The position numbers and the translations under genes are program-made. A stretch of DNA of 64,000 nt from Escherichia phage BAU.Micro_ELP-22. How positions within the stretch are numbered: position 1 is the stretch's first letter; each line of letters starts with the position of its first letter. The notes under the pieces were generated by a model. It ran no database searches and was not told the origin of the DNA. It saw only the letters and a list, made by a program, of their open reading frames with translations. Below, piece after piece: positions 33,963 through 63,456 of the stretch. Where the stretch lies: sequence record OR699282.2, one strand, 5' to 3'.

Positions 33963-34298
<336 letters not shown>

Positions 34299-34299
34299 A

Positions 34300-34482
34300 A
34301 TGACACACGAAGAATGGATGTCCAAACAGCATAAAGAACATGACTGCTTTGGGAATGGCATTCGTCAGGTACATTATGATATATTAAGAGATGAAAATCT
34401 TTTCAGGTCATATGTTTTGGATACCAGAAAACCCTGGTTTATATGCGAACTGGCATTTAGAAAGTCAAATAATCAAAACTAA
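34300..34482 (+). CDS. MTHEEW mini-protein family member 3
   Basis: 60 aa; MTHEEWM...WFICELAFRK. Confidence 0.5.
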   Translation: MTHEEWMSKQHKEHDCFGNGIRQVHYDILRDENLFRSYVLDTRKPWFICELAFRKSNNQN

Positions 34483-34498
34483 ACAAGGAATACAAAAA

Positions 34499-34717
34499 AT
34501 GGAAACAACTTTATTAGAAGTTATTCAATCATTAAAACCTGAAGATGAGGTTCAAGTACTACTACATGGTTATCGTGTAAAAGGTACTGTGGTTTTAGTC
34601 AATGATACAACATTGGTTATTACAGAAACAAACCCATATGATAGTAATCAACTTGCCAATATCCATATCGATATCACTGGAATTATTGGTGTCGGTGTAT
34701 CTAAAACACTTGCATAA
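34499..34717 (+). CDS. Hypothetical protein
   Basis: 72 aa from ATG with AGGAA RBS. Confidence 0.45.
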   Translation: METTLLEVIQSLKPEDEVQVLLHGYRVKGTVVLVNDTTLVITETNPYDSNQLANIHIDITGIIGVGVSKTLA

Positions 34718-34770
34718 ATCATTAATTCATTATATAATGATTATCACTGGTTCTAGATGAGGATAATATT

Positions 34771-35043
34771 ATGCATTTTGAAAAATTCAACGTAAATCGT
34801 AACACACGCATTGAAGTTCTTTATGAAACTCAAGACACCATTAGTATTCGTACAAGTAGTGGGGATGTATATCATGACTGTACGATTGGCTGGGAACAGG
34901 GAAGAACGCGTAGTGCAGTATTTGATAATTATCGCTTTTATCAAGGAGACACTACGATTTGGCCTGAATACGTAGAAGATATTGCGTTTGAAGATGAACA
35001 TAAAGATGAATTTATCAAATTTAATCCTCAAACTGAATCATAA
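34771..35043 (+). CDS. Hypothetical protein
   Basis: 90 aa; GAGGA RBS. Confidence 0.5.
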   Translation: MHFEKFNVNRNTRIEVLYETQDTISIRTSSGDVYHDCTIGWEQGRTRSAVFDNYRFYQGDTTIWPEYVEDIAFEDEHKDEFIKFNPQTES

Positions 35044-35048
35044 ATAAT

Positions 35049-35176
<128 letters not shown>

Positions 35177-35180
35177 AAAT

Positions 35181-35282
<102 letters not shown>

Positions 35283-35287
35283 AAACC

Positions 35288-35448
35288 ATGACGCATGAAG
35301 AATGGATGAATGACATTAATTTTAGATATTCGGGTATCGGTAAATGGCTAAAGTATCATTGGGAATTCATTTCAGAGCCACATATGTATGATAAACTTAT
35401 CAACGATCCAGCATATGAAATGTACTTAATTGAACTACTGGTACGAAT

Positions 35449-35452
<4 letters not shown>
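35288..35452 (+). CDS. MTHEEW mini-protein family member 4
   Basis: 54 aa; MTHEEWMNDINF...; below ORF-track threshold. Confidence 0.4.
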
Positions 35453-35614
<162 letters not shown>

Positions 35615-35624
35615 AAAAAAAAGA

Positions 35625-36033
<409 letters not shown>

Positions 36034-36037
<4 letters not shown>

Positions 36038-36061
36038 CTAAATAATTCAGTACTGTATAAT
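36034..36061 (+). promoter_or_regulatory. Early promoter, conserved-spacer family
   Basis: TTGACT-aaataattcagtactg-TATAAT; drives tRNA-Gly. Confidence 0.7.
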
Positions 36062-36063
36062 GC

Positions 36064-36147
<84 letters not shown>

Positions 36148-36167
36148 TTAATAATTCAAAGGTGAAT

Positions 36168-36344
36168 ATGATGCTATCACACAAAACAGCAACTGTTGAA
36201 AATATTGAATCATTATCTGCACAAGAATTGGTTGACAAAATTAAAGAAGTATGTGATAATAATGGCATTGATATGAATGATACATTTATTAGTGTAGGTT
36301 ATGGTGATTTAGAAATTCAATCTAAAACACTATATTATACTTGA
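36168..36344 (+). CDS. Small hypothetical protein
   Basis: 58 aa from ATG with AAGGTGA RBS. Confidence 0.45.
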   Translation: MMLSHKTATVENIESLSAQELVDKIKEVCDNNGIDMNDTFISVGYGDLEIQSKTLYYT

Positions 36345-36362
36345 CTAAATAGTTCAGTACCG
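36341..36362 (+). repeat. Degenerate copy of conserved-spacer promoter (has -35 and spacer, lacks -10)
   Basis: TTGACTaaatagttcagtacc followed by GAAGGAG rather than TATAAT. Confidence 0.5.
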
Positions 36363-36400
36363 AAGGAGATTAATATGTTTAAAGATGAACGTCCAGATTT

Positions 36401-36441
<41 letters not shown>

Positions 36442-36448
36442 GAATTCC

Positions 36449-36788
36449 ACAATCAGACGTATATGGTGTAAGTTACGTCGATGCAATCCAGAACAAGATC
36501 TCTGGTACTCTAGGAAGTGGTGAATGTTAACCTAGACGGGTTTGATAATTGGACGATAGGCAATTATTACTTGACTAGCAGGTTGAAACTAGAGGTGACA
36601 GTCCTTCACCAAACTGGAAAACCGGATGGACTTTTATTTAAAAGGGTAAGGCGTGGAAATATGTTTACAGAAGTTGCTTTTAGTAGCCTGTACGCCCCAC
36701 GTCAAGGTAGCCGAAAGGCAAGTTAAAACGGATGGTTATAAAGCTGAATTAACAGCGGCGTTTAAAAGCGTCACCATCCATTTTTTTT
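36449..36788 (+). ncRNA. Candidate structured non-coding RNA (about 340 nt) within the tRNA island
   Basis: Starts at predicted TSS of promoter 36413; GC-enriched versus flanks; ends in ggatggt...caccatcc stem plus T8; only internal ORF has GTG start. Confidence 0.35.
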
Positions 36789-36804
36789 AATTAAAGTTGG
36801 TGAT

Positions 36805-37194
<390 letters not shown>

Positions 37195-37210
37195 TATTAA
37201 GTATTGATAT

Positions 37211-37456
<246 letters not shown>

Positions 37457-37461
37457 CTAAA

Positions 37462-37626
<165 letters not shown>

Positions 37627-37650
37627 ACGAAATTACAATAGGAAATTAAA

Positions 37651-37836
37651 ATGCAACTTTTAATTCTTTCAATATTGTATATTATTATAATGGTTCCGAT
37701 ATCAATACGTTTAATTACAGTTGAACGATTTTTATCGAAACATGGAAATAGATCTATGATCTTTGTACCAATCGGGTTGATATTGTTTGGTATATTTTCA
37801 TTTATAATGGGAATTAACGCTACATTCATTTCATAG
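37651..37836 (+). CDS. Small membrane protein
   Basis: 61 aa; two hydrophobic helices; AGGAAA RBS. Confidence 0.45.
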   Translation: MQLLILSILYIIIMVPISIRLITVERFLSKHGNRSMIFVPIGLILFGIFSFIMGINATFIS

Positions 37837-37845
37837 GAAACAAAT

Positions 37846-38103
<258 letters not shown>

Positions 38104-38111
38104 GAATTTAA

Positions 38112-38513
38112 ATGAAAAAGAATGACTTGATCAAAATGCTTCAAGAGATTGACGGCAATCCAGAGATTGTTATTTGGAATGGATATGTCGATGATTATAT
38201 GAACATCGAAAAAGGCTTGACTAAAATCACTCTAGTCAAAGAAACTGAACAGTTCCTTCTGGAAGCATTAGTGCACGAATGGTGCAAACGTAACAATACA
38301 TTCGACATTCCAGAAGATCAACGAACTAAGATTGCAGAACGTGCTAAAGAACTGCATAAGAAACGCGAATACGATTTCCAGAACCCACATGTTACTGAAG
38401 ACGAATTCAATCACTGGTACGGTAAAAAGAAATTGACAAAGTATGTCCTTTCACCTAAACTACGTGGTAAGACTTCACTTGGTGTATTCAACGCCGCAGA
38501 CTTAAACTACTAG
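38112..38513 (+). CDS. Hypothetical protein (paralogue of next gene)
   Basis: 133 aa; N-terminus MKKNDLIKMLQEIDGNPEIV parallels next ORF. Confidence 0.55.
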   Translation: MKKNDLIKMLQEIDGNPEIVIWNGYVDDYMNIEKGLTKITLVKETEQFLLEALVHEWCKRNNTFDIPEDQRTKIAERAKELHKKREYDFQNPHVTEDEFNHWYGKKKLTKYVLSPKLRGKTSLGVFNAADLNY

Positions 38514-38522
38514 CGGGTATTA

Positions 38523-39071
<549 letters not shown>

Positions 39072-39073
39072 TA

Positions 39074-39130
<57 letters not shown>

Positions 39131-39143
39131 AGTAAGAGTAAAA

Positions 39144-39316
<173 letters not shown>

Positions 39317-39328
39317 TATCTTACTTCT

Positions 39329-39407
<79 letters not shown>

Positions 39408-39424
39408 CAAAATAAAGGTACACT

Positions 39425-52966: not shown

Positions 52967-53755
52967 ATGAGCACTATAGATGAACTGATTCGACGGAATT
53001 CAAAATATTACCAACCATCAGAAATTGTAGGTAACATTACCAAATCAGAGTTTGGTCCAAATACTCGAAAACTCATTCATGTAATGTCACGTGATGGCTT
53101 TAAATGTGATTGTTGTGGTGAATCAAATGTAGTATTCACTTTACACAAGCACAGTACTAAAGAACGTTATAAATTCAGACCTTATGTACTTAAAGGGAAA
53201 CGCCTTGTACGCATGACGTTAGACCATAATGTACTGGACTGTCTTCAGGGCGGTAATGATAAAGAGAACATGACTGCACTGTGTGAAGATTGTAACGCAT
53301 TACGCCAGCATAAGTTTGCTGAATACAGTGAGTTTAAACACTGGTATCATAACGCGGATCGTTCAATCGAGCCTGACGTTAACTACTGCTTCATTGAGTA
53401 CATTAAGAATGCCAAAGATACATACATTCTTAAATCAATGTCACCTATTACCGTGTTTCCTGAGAACCTATTCACTACATTAAAGAATAGTTTTATTGTA
53501 GGTGATATTGATGCATTCAAGTATTTTGACAAAGGTGCAAAACATTTTGAAATTCAATGTCTTAGTACTGCACTATGTGAACTCATTAAAATTTACATAA
53601 AAGAGTATTTGGGTATTGACAATGTACGTGTACCAGAGTATACTTTTTCTATTGAATTCGATTGTGAATCAATCAAAGAGTTTGGAATTCTTTTCAATAA
53701 ACAAATAGAACTTGCAATTCAAAACGAAATCAAGTACTATACTACTAACATTTAA
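52967..53755 (+). CDS. HNH endonuclease (probable free-standing homing endonuclease)
   Basis: 262 aa; Cys cluster FKCDCCGE; HNH core TLDHNVLDCLQGGNDKENMTALCEDCNALRQH. Confidence 0.7.
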   Translation: MSTIDELIRRNSKYYQPSEIVGNITKSEFGPNTRKLIHVMSRDGFKCDCCGESNVVFTLHKHSTKERYKFRPYVLKGKRLVRMTLDHNVLDCLQGGNDKENMTALCEDCNALRQHKFAEYSEFKHWYHNADRSIEPDVNYCFIEYIKNAKDTYILKSMSPITVFPENLFTTLKNSFIVGDIDAFKYFDKGAKHFEIQCLSTALCELIKIYIKEYLGIDNVRVPEYTFSIEFDCESIKEFGILFNKQIELAIQNEIKYYTTNI

Positions 53756-53770
53756 TCAGAGGAAATTATC

Positions 53771-53953
53771 ATGCAAATTATCATTCTTATCGTTGGCATC
53801 ATGCTGGGTGTTTACGGTCACTCCTGGATGAACGAGAAGTTTCCTAATACGCGTCCTGAGTATTGCAGTACTAATGTATTCCAGAATGGTGAGAAACCAA
53901 AGGAAAGCATTGGTAAAAAGCTGGATAAAGTACTTGATGTGATCAATGAATAA
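53771..53953 (+). CDS. Small membrane protein
   Basis: 60 aa; hydrophobic N-terminus; GAGGAAA RBS. Confidence 0.45.
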   Translation: MQIIILIVGIMLGVYGHSWMNEKFPNTRPEYCSTNVFQNGEKPKESIGKKLDKVLDVINE

Positions 53954-53963
53954 GGGCCATAAA

Positions 53964-54164
53964 ATGTTTAAACCGAATTCCAATGTTGGTAAGAAAGTTC
54001 AATTACTTGAAGATGTATCCACCATGAGTGGAATTTTCCCAAGAGGTCACATCATGACTATTATTGCCGAAACATCCCGTGGGTGGGATTTGGAAGATGC
54101 TGATGGTAATCGCATCCTTGAGGCTGGATTCTATGGTCATCGTGAATATAAAATCATTGATTAA
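53964..54164 (+). CDS. Hypothetical protein
   Basis: 66 aa from ATG with AAGGG RBS. Confidence 0.45.
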   Translation: MFKPNSNVGKKVQLLEDVSTMSGIFPRGHIMTIIAETSRGWDLEDADGNRILEAGFYGHREYKIID

Positions 54165-54173
54165 GGATACAAC

Positions 54174-54257
54174 ATGACTTTAGAGATTGTCTTTGGTATT
54201 GTTAGCTTAGTCGTCTGTGTGGGTTGGTTTGGGTATCTGATGATTTTTGGTGATTAA
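54174..54257 (+). CDS. Possible hydrophobic micro-protein
   Basis: 27 aa; AAGGA RBS; almost entirely hydrophobic. Confidence 0.25.
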   Translation: MTLEIVFGIVSLVVCVGWFGYLMIFGD

Positions 54258-54260
54258 TAC

Positions 54261-54288
54261 TTGACATAAGATATCAGTACTGTATAAT
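54261..54288 (+). promoter_or_regulatory. Early promoter, conserved-spacer family
   Basis: TTGACA-taagatatcagtactg-TATAAT. Confidence 0.7.
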
Positions 54289-54301
54289 GTTTATATCAAA
54301 G

Positions 54302-54351
54302 GGAATGCAGTGAAAGGAAAGACAGCATAATCGTACTCGTCACTGCGTTCC
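54302..54351 (+). promoter_or_regulatory. 5' leader hairpin, possible regulatory structure
   Basis: gggaatgcagtga ... tcactgcgttccc 13-bp stem (one G-U), 24-nt loop, 30 nt upstream of the 54382 start. Confidence 0.45.
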
Positions 54352-54381
54352 CGCCCTTTTAAATTAAATGAGGAATTAACT

Positions 54382-54690
54382 ATGTTTCAAACTAACACTC
54401 AAGGTTTTGTAATCATCGATTTGAATCAAAACAGCGGTTATTGGATGAAACCTACTGACGCATGTATGCAGTTTGATTTTTTAGGTTACAGGATTAGTGT
54501 AAGTACTGGTGCTTCTGTACTGCGTGGTGGTTGTATCGTTGAACATCTGGTAACTGATCCAGAAGGTCGTGAGTATGAAATCGCAGGTTCGGTACAAGAT
54601 GCCATTATGTTTGTATGTCAGCGTGAAATGAATAGTTCGAATTCAAATGCACTGACTCATGCTCTTTCTCAAGAAGTGGAGGTTCGTTAA
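54382..54690 (+). CDS. Hypothetical protein
   Basis: 102 aa; GAGGAA RBS. Confidence 0.55.
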   Translation: MFQTNTQGFVIIDLNQNSGYWMKPTDACMQFDFLGYRISVSTGASVLRGGCIVEHLVTDPEGREYEIAGSVQDAIMFVCQREMNSSNSNALTHALSQEVEVR

Positions 54691-54941
54691 TGAAATATAT
54701 CGTAGCAGTACTCGTTGCATTTTTACTCACTGCATGTGACGCTTCAACAAAAGAACGCACAAGTGATTTTATTCTCCCTATTGAATTACAAGAAGCAGGA
54801 TGTAAGATTTATCGTATGCAAAAGGACGGTGCTGGCGTAACCTTGTATACAGTTTATTGCCCTAATGCAAATACCAGTACTGGATACAGCAGCGGTAAAA
54901 CACGAATCAATACTTCAGTGATTAATGGAGTACAACAATGA
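54690..54941 (+). CDS. Small lipoprotein
   Basis: 83 aa; signal peptide with lipobox LTAC. Confidence 0.55.
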   Translation: MKYIVAVLVAFLLTACDASTKERTSDFILPIELQEAGCKIYRMQKDGAGVTLYTVYCPNANTSTGYSSGKTRINTSVINGVQQ

Positions 54942-59807: not shown

Positions 59808-59999
59808 ATGTTGATTTATCAAAGTGATAATATTCGTGTTATGCAGCATCCCTACTTACAAATCTTTGATGTGCAGCAGTATATGGAAGGTGATGACCCA
59901 AGAACCTATGGTCGTAAGTATGATTACTTCACTGTAAAGCAGTGTAAAAATATTAACGAAGTACGACAATTAGTTCAAGAACTTCAAAACAAAGGTTGA
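59808..59999 (+). CDS. Hypothetical protein
   Basis: 63 aa from ATG with AAGGA RBS. Confidence 0.45.
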   Translation: MLIYQSDNIRVMQHPYLQIFDVQQYMEGDDPRTYGRKYDYFTVKQCKNINEVRQLVQELQNKG

Positions 60000-60025
60000 C
60001 TTCGGTCAGCCTTTTTTGTTATAAT
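59994..60025 (+). terminator. Composite terminator-promoter element, copy 1
   Basis: ggttgac-ttcg-gtcagcc hairpin plus T6; the hairpin contains TTGACT and is followed 18 nt later by TATAAT. Confidence 0.65.
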
Positions 60026-63228: not shown

Positions 63229-63234
63229 TAAAAA

Positions 63235-63260
63235 GGGTTGACTAAGGTCAGCCCTTTGTT
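63235..63260 (+). terminator. Composite terminator-promoter element, copy 2
   Basis: gggttgac-taag-gtcagccc hairpin plus T-rich tail; contains TTGACT. Confidence 0.6.
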
Positions 63261-63296
63261 GTATCATAACTTCTCAATATAACTGAGGTATCATAT

Positions 63297-63410: not shown

Positions 63411-63418
63411 CAAAATAA

Positions 63419-63440
63419 GGTTGACTTCGGTCAGCCTTTT
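63419..63440 (+). terminator. Composite terminator-promoter element, copy 3
   Basis: ggttgac-ttcg-gtcagcc hairpin plus TTTT; near-identical to copy 1. Confidence 0.65.
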
Positions 63441-63448
63441 CTTTATAC

Positions 63449-63456
63449 TATAAATA
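63449..63456 (+). promoter_or_regulatory. T4-type late promoter box TATAAATA
   Basis: Exact TATAAATA 19 nt upstream of the 63475 start. Confidence 0.5.

What the first reader, a model, noticed from the sequence alone, without database searches (positions are those of the whole stretch)
54261..54381. Long 5' leader hairpin between an early promoter and its first gene
The transcript from the 54261 promoter would begin with a 13-bp stem (gggaatgcagtga / tcactgcgttccc) and 24-nt loop, ending ~30 nt before the GAGGA RBS. Such leader structures can act as processing sites, translational operators or small RNAs.
Basis: seen in the sequence. Interest (0 to 1): 0.4.

Follow-up and report, generated by a model that had tools for sequence, protein, structure and literature searches.

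The report
tRNA-slot hairpin in a phage leader
The hairpin is real and evolutionarily maintained, and it sits where this jumbo phage normally places a tRNA gene between an early promoter and a small gene; its unusually conserved loop also occurs inside a pseudo-tRNA of a related Klebsiella phage, so the loop, not the stem, is probably the working part.

Summary
The window is an Asteriusvirus (PBECO4/121Q-like E. coli jumbo phage). The hairpin exists at 54301-54313 / 54340-54352: 13 bp with one G.U. The loop is 26 nt, not 24. The stem ends 17 nt before GAGGA and 29 nt before the ATG. It lies 12 nt downstream of a 12/12 sigma-70 consensus promoter.

The hairpin is single-copy in 35 Asteriusvirus genomes. 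Every stem substitution keeps pairing: three double compensatory changes in a metagenomic relative, and C-to-U changes giving G.U on the + strand only. The apical 42 nt are 100% identical where third codon positions of the downstream gene are 63% identical.

A 27-nt loop segment is 24/27 identical to the expanded anticodon loop of RaK2 pseudo-tRNA gt006. That element follows the same kind of promoter but precedes a different gene. The window's own tRNA genes all sit in promoter-tRNA-spacer-small ORF units, and the hairpin fills the tRNA slot of one.

My best reading is a tRNA-derived structured RNA whose stem is a scaffold and whose loop is recognised by an unknown partner. Whether it acts in cis (5' protection) or as a released small RNA is unresolved. 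It is not a terminator, a tRNA, a typical RNase III site or any Rfam family. Function is inferred, not shown.

The parts
54261..54288 (+). Sigma-70-type promoter: -35 TTGACA (54261-54266), 16-bp spacer, -10 TATAAT (54283-54288). The predicted start is near A54295.
   Evidence: 12/12 consensus match. The same -10 plus GTTTATATCAA context precedes the tRNA-like elements in RaK2-like phages. The TSS is inferred only.
54301..54313 (+). 5' arm of the hairpin (GGGAAUGCAGUGA).
   Evidence: Positions 1, 3 and 4 covary with their partners in L016.
54314..54339 (+). 26-nt loop, AAGGAAAGACAGCAUAAUCGUACUCG.
   Evidence: Invariant in the 13 aligned leader variants outside the window (11 phage records plus two metagenome contigs) and in L016, where third-codon identity of the downstream gene is 63%.
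54340..54352 (+). 3' arm of the hairpin (UCACUGCGUUCCC).
   Evidence: The only within-genus changes are C-to-U, giving G.U pairs. There are compensatory changes in L016. The last 7 nt of this arm plus 6 nt downstream are deleted in metagenome variant L029.
54305..54346 (+). Apical core (upper stem plus loop), constrained at the sequence level.
   Evidence: 42/42 identical between the window and L016, against 80% identity in the coding region and 63% at third positions.
54315..54341 (+). 27-nt segment homologous to the expanded anticodon loop and 3' anticodon-stem strand of RaK2 pseudo-tRNA F403_gt006.
   Evidence: 24/27 identity; local score 39 against a maximum of 26 in 2000 shuffles. The CM built from the hairpin hits RaK2-like loci at E of about 0.002. 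gt006 scores 33.6 bits on Rfam tRNA with an 18-nt anticodon-loop insertion.
54353..54381 (+). A/U-rich spacer with the Shine-Dalgarno GAGGA (54370-54374).
   Evidence: Conserved also in RaK2-like relatives that lack the hairpin, so it belongs to the gene's translation-initiation region. It resembles the spacers after the window's tRNA genes.
54382..54690 (+). Downstream ORF, 102 aa, function unknown (phrog_26720). It is the homolog of RaK2 ORF257.
   Evidence: No Pfam hit. The AlphaFold model has low confidence, pLDDT 61.

Best explanation
The hairpin is a structured RNA that occupies the tRNA slot of one of this phage's standard early units (sigma-70 promoter, tRNA, A/U-rich spacer with SD, small ORF). 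It is related to a pseudo-tRNA of RaK2-like phages. The cloverleaf is replaced here by a plain 13-bp helix, and the helix displays a roughly 26-nt loop that is homologous to the expanded anticodon loop of RaK2 gt006. The helix acts as a scaffold, because only pairing is selected in its lower half. The apical 42 nt are the functional part and are recognised sequence-specifically by a partner not yet identified, either a protein or an RNA.

My committed mechanism is as follows. The element is transcribed as the first 55-65 nt of the early mRNA and folds co-transcriptionally. Like the neighbouring tRNAs, it behaves as an RNA product in its own right, either staying on the mRNA 5' end or being cut off in the A/U-rich spacer. 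While attached, it also shields the mRNA 5' end from RppH and RNase E.

Shown: the structure, the selection on it, the homology and the genomic architecture. Inferred: the transcription start, any processing, the partner and the effect.
For: Structure: MFE stem, z = -3.1.

Selection on pairing: 100% of the 52 pair cells are paired across 4 distinct sequences. Three pairs changed on both sides (G-C to A-U, G-C to C-G, A-U to G-C). Four one-sided changes are all wobble-compatible on the + strand only. Slid controls give 31-56% paired.

Selection on loop sequence: 42/42 identity against 63% at third codon positions in L016. The hairpin is 51/52 identical where flanks are 57-80% identical in Turkey5.

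Loop motif on another scaffold and before another gene: RaK2 gt006 shares 24/27, is a tRNA-like cloverleaf, is annotated as a pseudo-tRNA (PMC3622015), and lies upstream of the ORF254 homolog rather than ORF257.

tRNA-slot architecture: the window's tRNAs have a -10 box ending 6-12 nt upstream and a small ORF starting 15-31 nt downstream. The hairpin has the same geometry.

Natural deletion variant L029 keeps the apical part and loses the lower-stem 3' strand.

5' structures stabilise E. coli mRNAs because RppH and RNase E need single-stranded 5' ends (PMC3997798).
Against: There are no transcript data, so the TSS, any processing and RNA abundance are unknown. The covariation rests on one metagenomic contig (L016) and four distinct sequences, and 18 of 500 column shuffles reach the observed score. 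No partner or target was found. The loop has no significant complementarity to the downstream mRNA or the phage tRNAs, and there is no match in E. coli genomes. The predicted 5' overhang of 4-8 nt is longer than ideal for 5'-end protection. The hairpin lacks the T-arm, and a 3' RCC is present in only some variants, so RNase P or tRNA-type processing cannot be assumed. The direction of evolution (tRNA to hairpin, or motif inserted into a tRNA) is not resolved. The hairpin has no significant similarity to the window's functional tRNAs.
Confidence: 0.4

Rival explanations
1. It is a purely cis-acting 5'-terminal stabiliser or insulator. The stem blocks RppH and RNase E access and keeps the leader from pairing with the RBS. 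The loop has no specific role.
For: The hairpin starts about 4-8 nt after the predicted start in every promoter context. The stem covaries. The SD remains unpaired in the predicted folds. There is an established precedent for 5' stem-loops (PMC3997798 and its refs 93-95).
Against: It does not explain 26 invariant loop nucleotides, which are more conserved than the coding gene. It does not explain conservation of the motif in RaK2 on a cloverleaf. A 26-nt loop weakens a hairpin that only needs to be stable. L029 keeps the loop and loses the lower stem.
Confidence: 0.25
2. It is a translational or transcriptional operator in cis. A phage or host protein binds the loop to control the downstream ORF or operon, either by autoregulation or by a nut/put-like modification of RNA polymerase.
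For: Loop invariance together with stem covariation is typical of protein-binding hairpins. The element is promoter-proximal, 17 nt upstream of the SD.
Against: The motif precedes non-homologous genes in the two genera, which argues against autoregulation by the downstream protein. The hairpin does not overlap the SD or AUG. No Rfam family matches. No terminator lies before 59991. The downstream protein gives no hint of an RNA-binding fold, but the model is poor.
Confidence: 0.15
3. It is a decaying pseudo-tRNA relic without function, whose conservation reflects recent common ancestry or recombination.
For: RaK2-like leader elements are visibly decaying and shuffled: a D-armless copy in K64-1 and an acceptor mismatch in Muenster. 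RaK2's annotators call them pseudo-tRNAs (PMC3622015). L029 carries a deletion. Most Asteriusvirus genomes are 95-99% identical in this region.
Against: Every one of the 10 substituted stem positions preserves pairing. The apical part is 42/42 identical where neutral-like sites are 63% identical. The flanks in Turkey5 and JNE01 are far more diverged than the hairpin.
Confidence: 0.1
4. It is a ribonuclease processing site (RNase III on the stem, or RNase P on an acceptor-like helix) that sets the 5' end of the mRNA.
For: T7 early mRNAs carry RNase III hairpins after their promoters (from my own knowledge). The 13-bp helix is close to the 12-bp acceptor/T-stem stack, and it is followed by GCCC or ACCC in most genomes. 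The element sits in a tRNA slot.
Against: 13 bp is short for E. coli RNase III. The RCC motif is absent in UE-S1, ph0011 and L016. There is no T-loop. Cleavage would remove only a few nucleotides.
Confidence: 0.07
5. It is an intrinsic terminator or attenuator that produces a short RNA and limits read-through.
For: A stem followed by a UUUU tract 4 nt later.
Against: The loop is 26 nt. The U tract is separated from the stem by GCCC, so the terminal hybrid would be G/C-rich. The terminator scan did not call it. The UUUUAA tract is conserved in relatives that lack the hairpin.
Confidence: 0.03

Closest known systems
RaK2 pseudo-tRNA F403_gt006 (NC_019526 194649-194735), together with gt007 and other leader tRNA-like elements of Alcyoneusvirus phages
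   Same: It has the same kind of promoter and initial transcribed sequence (TATAAT GTTTATATCAA). It holds the same position between promoter and RBS of a small early gene. A 27-nt segment is 24/27 identical.
   Different: gt006 is a cloverleaf with acceptor, D and T arms (33.6 bits on Rfam tRNA). The window element is a single helix with no tRNA score. It also precedes a different gene.
Promoter-tRNA-ORF co-transcription units (this window's own tRNA genes; the E. coli tufB operon as a textbook case, from my own knowledge)
   Same: A structured RNA lies directly after the promoter and directly before an SD and ORF.
   Different: The structured RNA here is not a tRNA and cannot be charged or decode.
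5'-terminal stem-loop mRNA stabilisers (ompA, papA; Emory, Bouvet and Belasco, cited in PMC3997798)
   Same: A stable hairpin close to the 5' end of an E. coli-expressed mRNA, upstream of and not overlapping the RBS.
   Different: Those need no specific loop sequence. Here the loop is large and is the most conserved part. The predicted overhang is 4-8 nt.
RNAs displayed on tRNA scaffolds or tRNA-linked viral small RNAs (engineered tRNA scaffolds; MHV68 tRNA-miRNA TMERs; from my own knowledge)
   Same: In RaK2 the motif sits where the anticodon loop of a tRNA-like scaffold would be. This suggests a payload-on-scaffold logic.
   Different: There is no evidence here for processing or trans activity, and the host system is different.
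T4 PeSL (promoter-early stem-loop) cassettes (from my own knowledge)
   Same: Promoter-associated hairpins and promoter-mediated gene shuffling. The UB-versus-window cassette polymorphism shows the latter.
   Different: In PeSLs the stem-loop (a terminator) precedes the promoter. Here it follows the promoter and is transcribed from it. True PeSL-like sites do exist elsewhere in the window (59991, 63232, 63417).

Membership tests
tRNA (Rfam RF00005 / ARAGORN) | Cloverleaf with acceptor, D, anticodon (7-nt loop) and T arms | tested here: not met
   ARAGORN finds 7 tRNAs in the window and none at 54301. Rfam gathering and E<=10 scans give no tRNA hit in 54240-54420.
RaK2 gt006-type leader pseudo-tRNA | Sequence homology to the expanded anticodon arm | tested here: met
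   24/27 identity; score 39 against a null maximum of 26. CM hits at 19 bits.
RaK2 gt006-type leader pseudo-tRNA | tRNA-like cloverleaf with acceptor and T arm | tested here: not met
   gt006 scores 33.6 bits on RF00005. The window element folds as one helix.
RaK2 gt006-type leader pseudo-tRNA | Position immediately downstream of the TATAAT-GTTTATATCAA promoter and upstream of an SD and small ORF | tested here: met
Intrinsic (Rho-independent) terminator | G+C-rich stem, 3-8 nt loop, U tract within 0-2 nt of the stem | tested here: not met
   The loop is 26 nt and GCCC separates the stem from UUUU. It was not called by the scan.
5'-terminal stabiliser hairpin (ompA type) | Stem-loop at or within a few nucleotides of the transcript 5' end | tested here: inconclusive
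   The stem starts 12 nt after the -10 box (10-13 nt in variants), which implies a 4-8 nt overhang. The TSS is not mapped.
5'-terminal stabiliser hairpin (ompA type) | Lengthens mRNA half-life | not testable with these tools
   Needs rifampicin-chase or reporter assays.
RNase III processing hairpin (T7 R-site type) | About two helical turns of (interrupted) duplex | tested here: not met
   There are only 13 bp, and the loop pairs predicted above the stem are weak and not conserved.
RNase P minihelix-type substrate | About 12-bp coaxial helix with a 3' RCCA/RCC tail | tested here: inconclusive
   The helix is 13 bp. GCCC or ACCC follows it in most genomes, but AACC, GUAC and CCUU follow it in UE-S1, ph0011 and L016.
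Any curated Rfam family | Score at or above the gathering threshold | tested here: not met
   Best hit is DUF2815 RNA at 15.4 bits against a gathering score of 41.2, E = 1.9.

The most novel reading that the evidence does not exclude
The roughly 20-27-nt loop motif (ACAGCAUAAU-S-GUACUCGUC) is a conserved RNA payload that Rak2-like jumbo phages display on interchangeable scaffolds: a tRNA-like cloverleaf in RaK2 and a plain helix in Asteriusvirus. It is expressed from strong early promoters. On this reading the so-called pseudo-tRNAs are not dead genes but carriers of a small trans-acting RNA. That RNA could be, for example, an anticodon-arm mimic or decoy for a host tRNA-targeting defence nuclease or a tRNA-binding enzyme.
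Probability: 0.15. Interest if true: 0.8.

Novelty: new variant of a known kind. Interest (0 to 1): 0.5.

Why it matters
If the loop is functional, this adds a new conserved non-coding RNA motif to a large and poorly understood group of jumbo phages. Many of these phages are being developed for therapy against E. coli and Klebsiella. It would also re-label the 'pseudo-tRNAs' of RaK2-like phages as functional RNA carriers. In addition, the locus documents a simple genome architecture (promoter, structured RNA, small ORF) in which leader RNAs and genes are reshuffled by recombination between near-identical promoters. The element is short and comes with natural variants: compensatory stems and a lower-stem deletion. 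That makes it directly testable.

Tried and rejected
- **Known RNA family:** Rfam at gathering threshold and at E<=10 gave nothing.
- **tRNA:** ARAGORN gave nothing at this site.
- **Repeated element in the window or genome:** the stem motif is unique in the window. There is a single copy per genome in 35 records. The CM search of the window finds only itself.
- **Loop pairing with the downstream mRNA or RBS:** duplex energy is no better than for shuffled loops, 56% of which do as well.
- **Loop pairing with the phage's own tRNAs:** not significant.
- **Similarity of the hairpin to the window's functional tRNAs:** not significant.
- **Host homolog or long antisense target in 5,426 E. coli genomes:** none.
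- **Small leader peptide:** the AUA-initiated 11-codon frame and the AUG-CAG-UGA mini-ORF are not conserved in frame or SD in L016 (read). Rejected.
- **SD-sequestering helix CCUU/GAGG:** predicted but broken in UE-S1 and ph0011.
- **Inner loop helix:** the G7-C18 to C7-G18 swap between the window and RaK2 is suggestive, but L017 breaks the adjacent pair. Left inconclusive.
- **Function of the downstream protein:** no Pfam hit, PHROG of unknown function, AlphaFold pLDDT 61. No fold search was run on such a weak model.
- **Wider homolog harvest:** metagenome, genome and viral scans added only near-identical or RaK2-type loci.
- **Literature:** I found no transcriptome or promoter study of Asteriusvirus.
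- **Failed run:** a whole-window duplex scan timed out.

Full report
**Identity of the window**

A BLAST search with 53900-54750 finds 35 near-full-length matches. All are Asteriusvirus jumbo phages of E. coli or Salmonella (PBECO4, 121Q, slurp01, UB, fEgEco12 and others) at 95-99% identity. Two diverged members, Turkey5 and JNE01, match at 76-82%. Klebsiella Alcyoneusvirus phages (RaK2, K64-1) give weaker matches. The region 52-64 kb is an array of small + strand ORFs with sigma-70 consensus promoters, which is typical of an early region.

**The observation**

The sequence contains GGGAATGCAGTGA (54301-54313) and TCACTGCGTTCCC (54340-54352). These form 13 contiguous pairs, one of them U.G, around a 26-nt loop. 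RNAfold returns this stem as both MFE and centroid structure (-27 kcal/mol, z = -3.1, 1 of 200 shuffles as good).

The stem ends 17 nt before GAGGA (54370-54374) and 29 nt before the ATG at 54382. The promoter TTGACA-16-TATAAT (54261-54288) is a perfect consensus match.

Stems of this quality occur 4 times on the + strand of the window against 0.7 expected. The stem by itself is therefore only mildly unusual. It is unique in the window and single-copy in each of the 35 genomes.

**Comparative evidence for a selected RNA structure**

I aligned twelve leader variants (the window plus eleven phage records). The 5' arm and the whole loop are invariant. The only changes in the 3' arm are three C-to-U transitions, and each converts a G-C pair to G.U. 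These would be A.C mismatches on the other strand or in DNA, so the constraint acts on the + strand RNA.

A metagenomic relative, L016, has a downstream protein 84% identical to the window's. It carries AGCGATGCAGTGA-[identical 26-nt loop]-TCACTGCATCGCT. That gives three pairs changed on both sides (G-C to A-U, G-C to C-G, A-U to G-C) and U.G changed to U-A.

On the four distinct sequences, 100% of pair cells are paired, against 31-56% when the 3' partners are slid by 1-3 columns. Eighteen of 500 column shuffles reach the observed covariation.

Between the window and L016 the coding region is 80% identical and third codon positions are 63% identical. Yet 54305-54346 (upper stem plus loop) is 42/42 identical. 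In Turkey5 and JNE01 the hairpin is 51/52 identical, while Turkey5's flanks are 57-80% identical.

The lower six or seven base pairs are therefore constrained only to pair, while the apical 42 nt are constrained in sequence more strongly than the gene they precede. One short metagenome contig (L029) lacks 13 nt. This removes the 3' strand of the lower stem but keeps the apical part.

**What the loop is related to**

I built a covariance model from the hairpin. Besides the hairpin itself, it hit three RaK2-like loci with the loop positions only (19 bits, E about 0.002).

In RaK2 the hit lies inside an 87-nt element that follows a TTGACA-17-TATAAT promoter and the same GTTTATATCAA initial sequence. 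The record annotates this element as pseudo tRNA F403_gt006. The RaK2 paper reports two pseudo-tRNA genes in a roughly 1-kb cluster (PMC3622015).

The element folds as a cloverleaf. It scores 33.6 bits on Rfam tRNA (gathering score 29), with 18 nt inserted in the anticodon loop. The window segment 54315-54341 is 24/27 identical to that expanded loop plus the 3' anticodon-stem strand. The local score is 39, against a maximum of 26 in 2000 shuffles.

Synteny shows that gt006 precedes the homolog of window ORF 53946-54164 (73% identity). The window hairpin instead precedes the homolog of RaK2 ORF257 (67%), and in RaK2-like phages that gene is preceded by gt007 plus a second tRNA-like element. The motif therefore travels with the promoter and a scaffold, not with a particular gene.

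The leader elements are plastic among close relatives. K64-1 has a D-armless gt007-like copy in the gt006 position. Muenster has an acceptor mismatch. Salmonella phage 7t3 has the same promoter with a short unstructured leader.

**The genomic logic**

The window's functional tRNA genes (33985-39408) are each arranged the same way. A -10 box ends 6-12 nt upstream of the tRNA. One of them, upstream of tRNA-Gly 36071, is a full TTGACT-16-TATAAT with the same CAGTACTG spacer end. After the tRNA comes an A/U-rich spacer with an SD, and a small + strand ORF starts 15-31 nt downstream.

The hairpin sits in exactly this slot: the -10 box ends 12 nt upstream, and the ORF starts 29 nt downstream. It has no significant similarity to any of these functional tRNAs. 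The link to tRNAs therefore runs through architecture and through gt006, not through direct sequence descent that I can demonstrate.

**What it is not**

- It is not a tRNA.
- It is not any Rfam family. The best hit is DUF2815 RNA at 15 bits, against a gathering score of 41.
- It is not an intrinsic terminator. The loop is 26 nt, GCCC lies between the stem and the U tract, and the UUUUAA tract is conserved in relatives that lack the hairpin.
- It is not a typical RNase III site, because it has only 13 bp.
- It does not sequester the SD.
- A weak CCUU/GAGG helix and several mini-ORFs are not conserved.
- The loop has no significant complement in the downstream mRNA or the phage tRNAs, and no match in E. 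coli genomes.

**Mechanism**

The shown facts are a selected + strand RNA helix, an ultra-conserved loop, homology of that loop to the expanded anticodon loop of a leader pseudo-tRNA, and placement in a tRNA slot.

From these I infer that the helix is a scaffold and the loop is the working part, recognised by a partner that I could not identify. In the sibling units the structured RNA (a tRNA) is itself the product. The motif is also kept on two different scaffolds in front of two different genes. For both reasons I favour an RNA product or factor-binding module over a gene-specific operator.

While attached, a 5'-proximal helix should also hinder RppH and RNase E, which need single-stranded 5' ends (PMC3997798). 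However, the predicted 4-8-nt overhang and the large loop argue that protection is not the whole story.

I put about 0.4 on this combined reading and 0.25 on a pure cis stabiliser. I give 0.15 to a cis protein operator or antitermination-type site and 0.1 to a functionless relic. Nuclease-site and terminator readings get less.

**Novelty and limits**

I found no transcriptomic or regulatory study of this phage genus in the held literature, and none of the records annotates the element. It is a new RNA motif in a narrow clade, and a new variant of known kinds (structured 5' leaders, tRNA-like relics).

The covariation depends on one metagenomic lineage. All statements about transcription and function are inferences.

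Noticed in passing
window 33985-39408 (tRNA cluster) compared with 54261-54382: Every tRNA gene of the window sits in a unit made of a -10 box (6-12 nt upstream), the tRNA, an A/U-rich spacer with SD, and a small ORF starting 15-31 nt downstream. For example, promoter TTGACT-16-TATAAT at 36034 is followed by tRNA-Gly at 36071 and an ORF at about 36162. tRNAs here look like 5' leaders of small-ORF mRNAs.
   Followed up: partly
window 54261-54300; L001 (phage UB) 962-1345; Ecwhy_1 in alignment A1: Most Asteriusvirus genomes carry an extra 92-aa gene (phrog_24324) plus a second, similar promoter between this promoter and the hairpin. The window, fEgEco12, EC.P1 and others lack it. Ecwhy_1 has a chimeric promoter, with the P1 -35 box and spacer and the P2 -10 box. 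This indicates gain or loss of a gene cassette by recombination between near-identical promoters.
   Followed up: partly
window 59991-60025, 63232-63267, 63417-63449 (+ strand): Terminator-like hairpins (AAAGGTTGACTTCGGTCAGCCTTT followed by a T run) have a stem that contains a -35 box TTGACT, followed by a -10 box. These overlapping terminator-promoter units are reminiscent of T4 PeSL cassettes.
   Followed up: no
window 54174-54257 (+): A 27-codon hydrophobic ORF (MTLEIVFGIVSLVVCVGWFGYLMIFGD) with an AAGGA Shine-Dalgarno sequence ends 3 nt before the promoter's -35 box. It is not annotated in the related records I looked at (UB, fEgEco12).
   Followed up: partly
L014 (RaK2) 1141-1216 and 1259-1347; L004 (K64-1) 437-497; L034 (Muenster) 391-467: RaK2-like Klebsiella phages carry several tRNA-like leader elements directly after copies of one promoter. 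gt007 scores 30 bits on Rfam tRNA and has an 11-nt anticodon loop. A second element has a good acceptor and T arm but scores only 21 bits on tRNA-Sec. K64-1 has a D-armless copy. These elements are swapped, truncated or lost between close relatives.
   Followed up: partly
L029 (ENA ERZ27235517 k119_71915) 314-362: A metagenomic Asteriusvirus-like contig has a 13-nt deletion that removes the 3' strand of the lower stem (CGTTCCCGCCCTT) while keeping the upper stem and loop. This is either a natural minimal version or an assembly artefact.
   Followed up: no
window 52967-53755 (+): An HNH endonuclease gene lies about 500 bp upstream, in a region whose flanks differ between Asteriusvirus genomes. 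Turkey5 has different genes there. It may be a mobile insertion.
   Followed up: no
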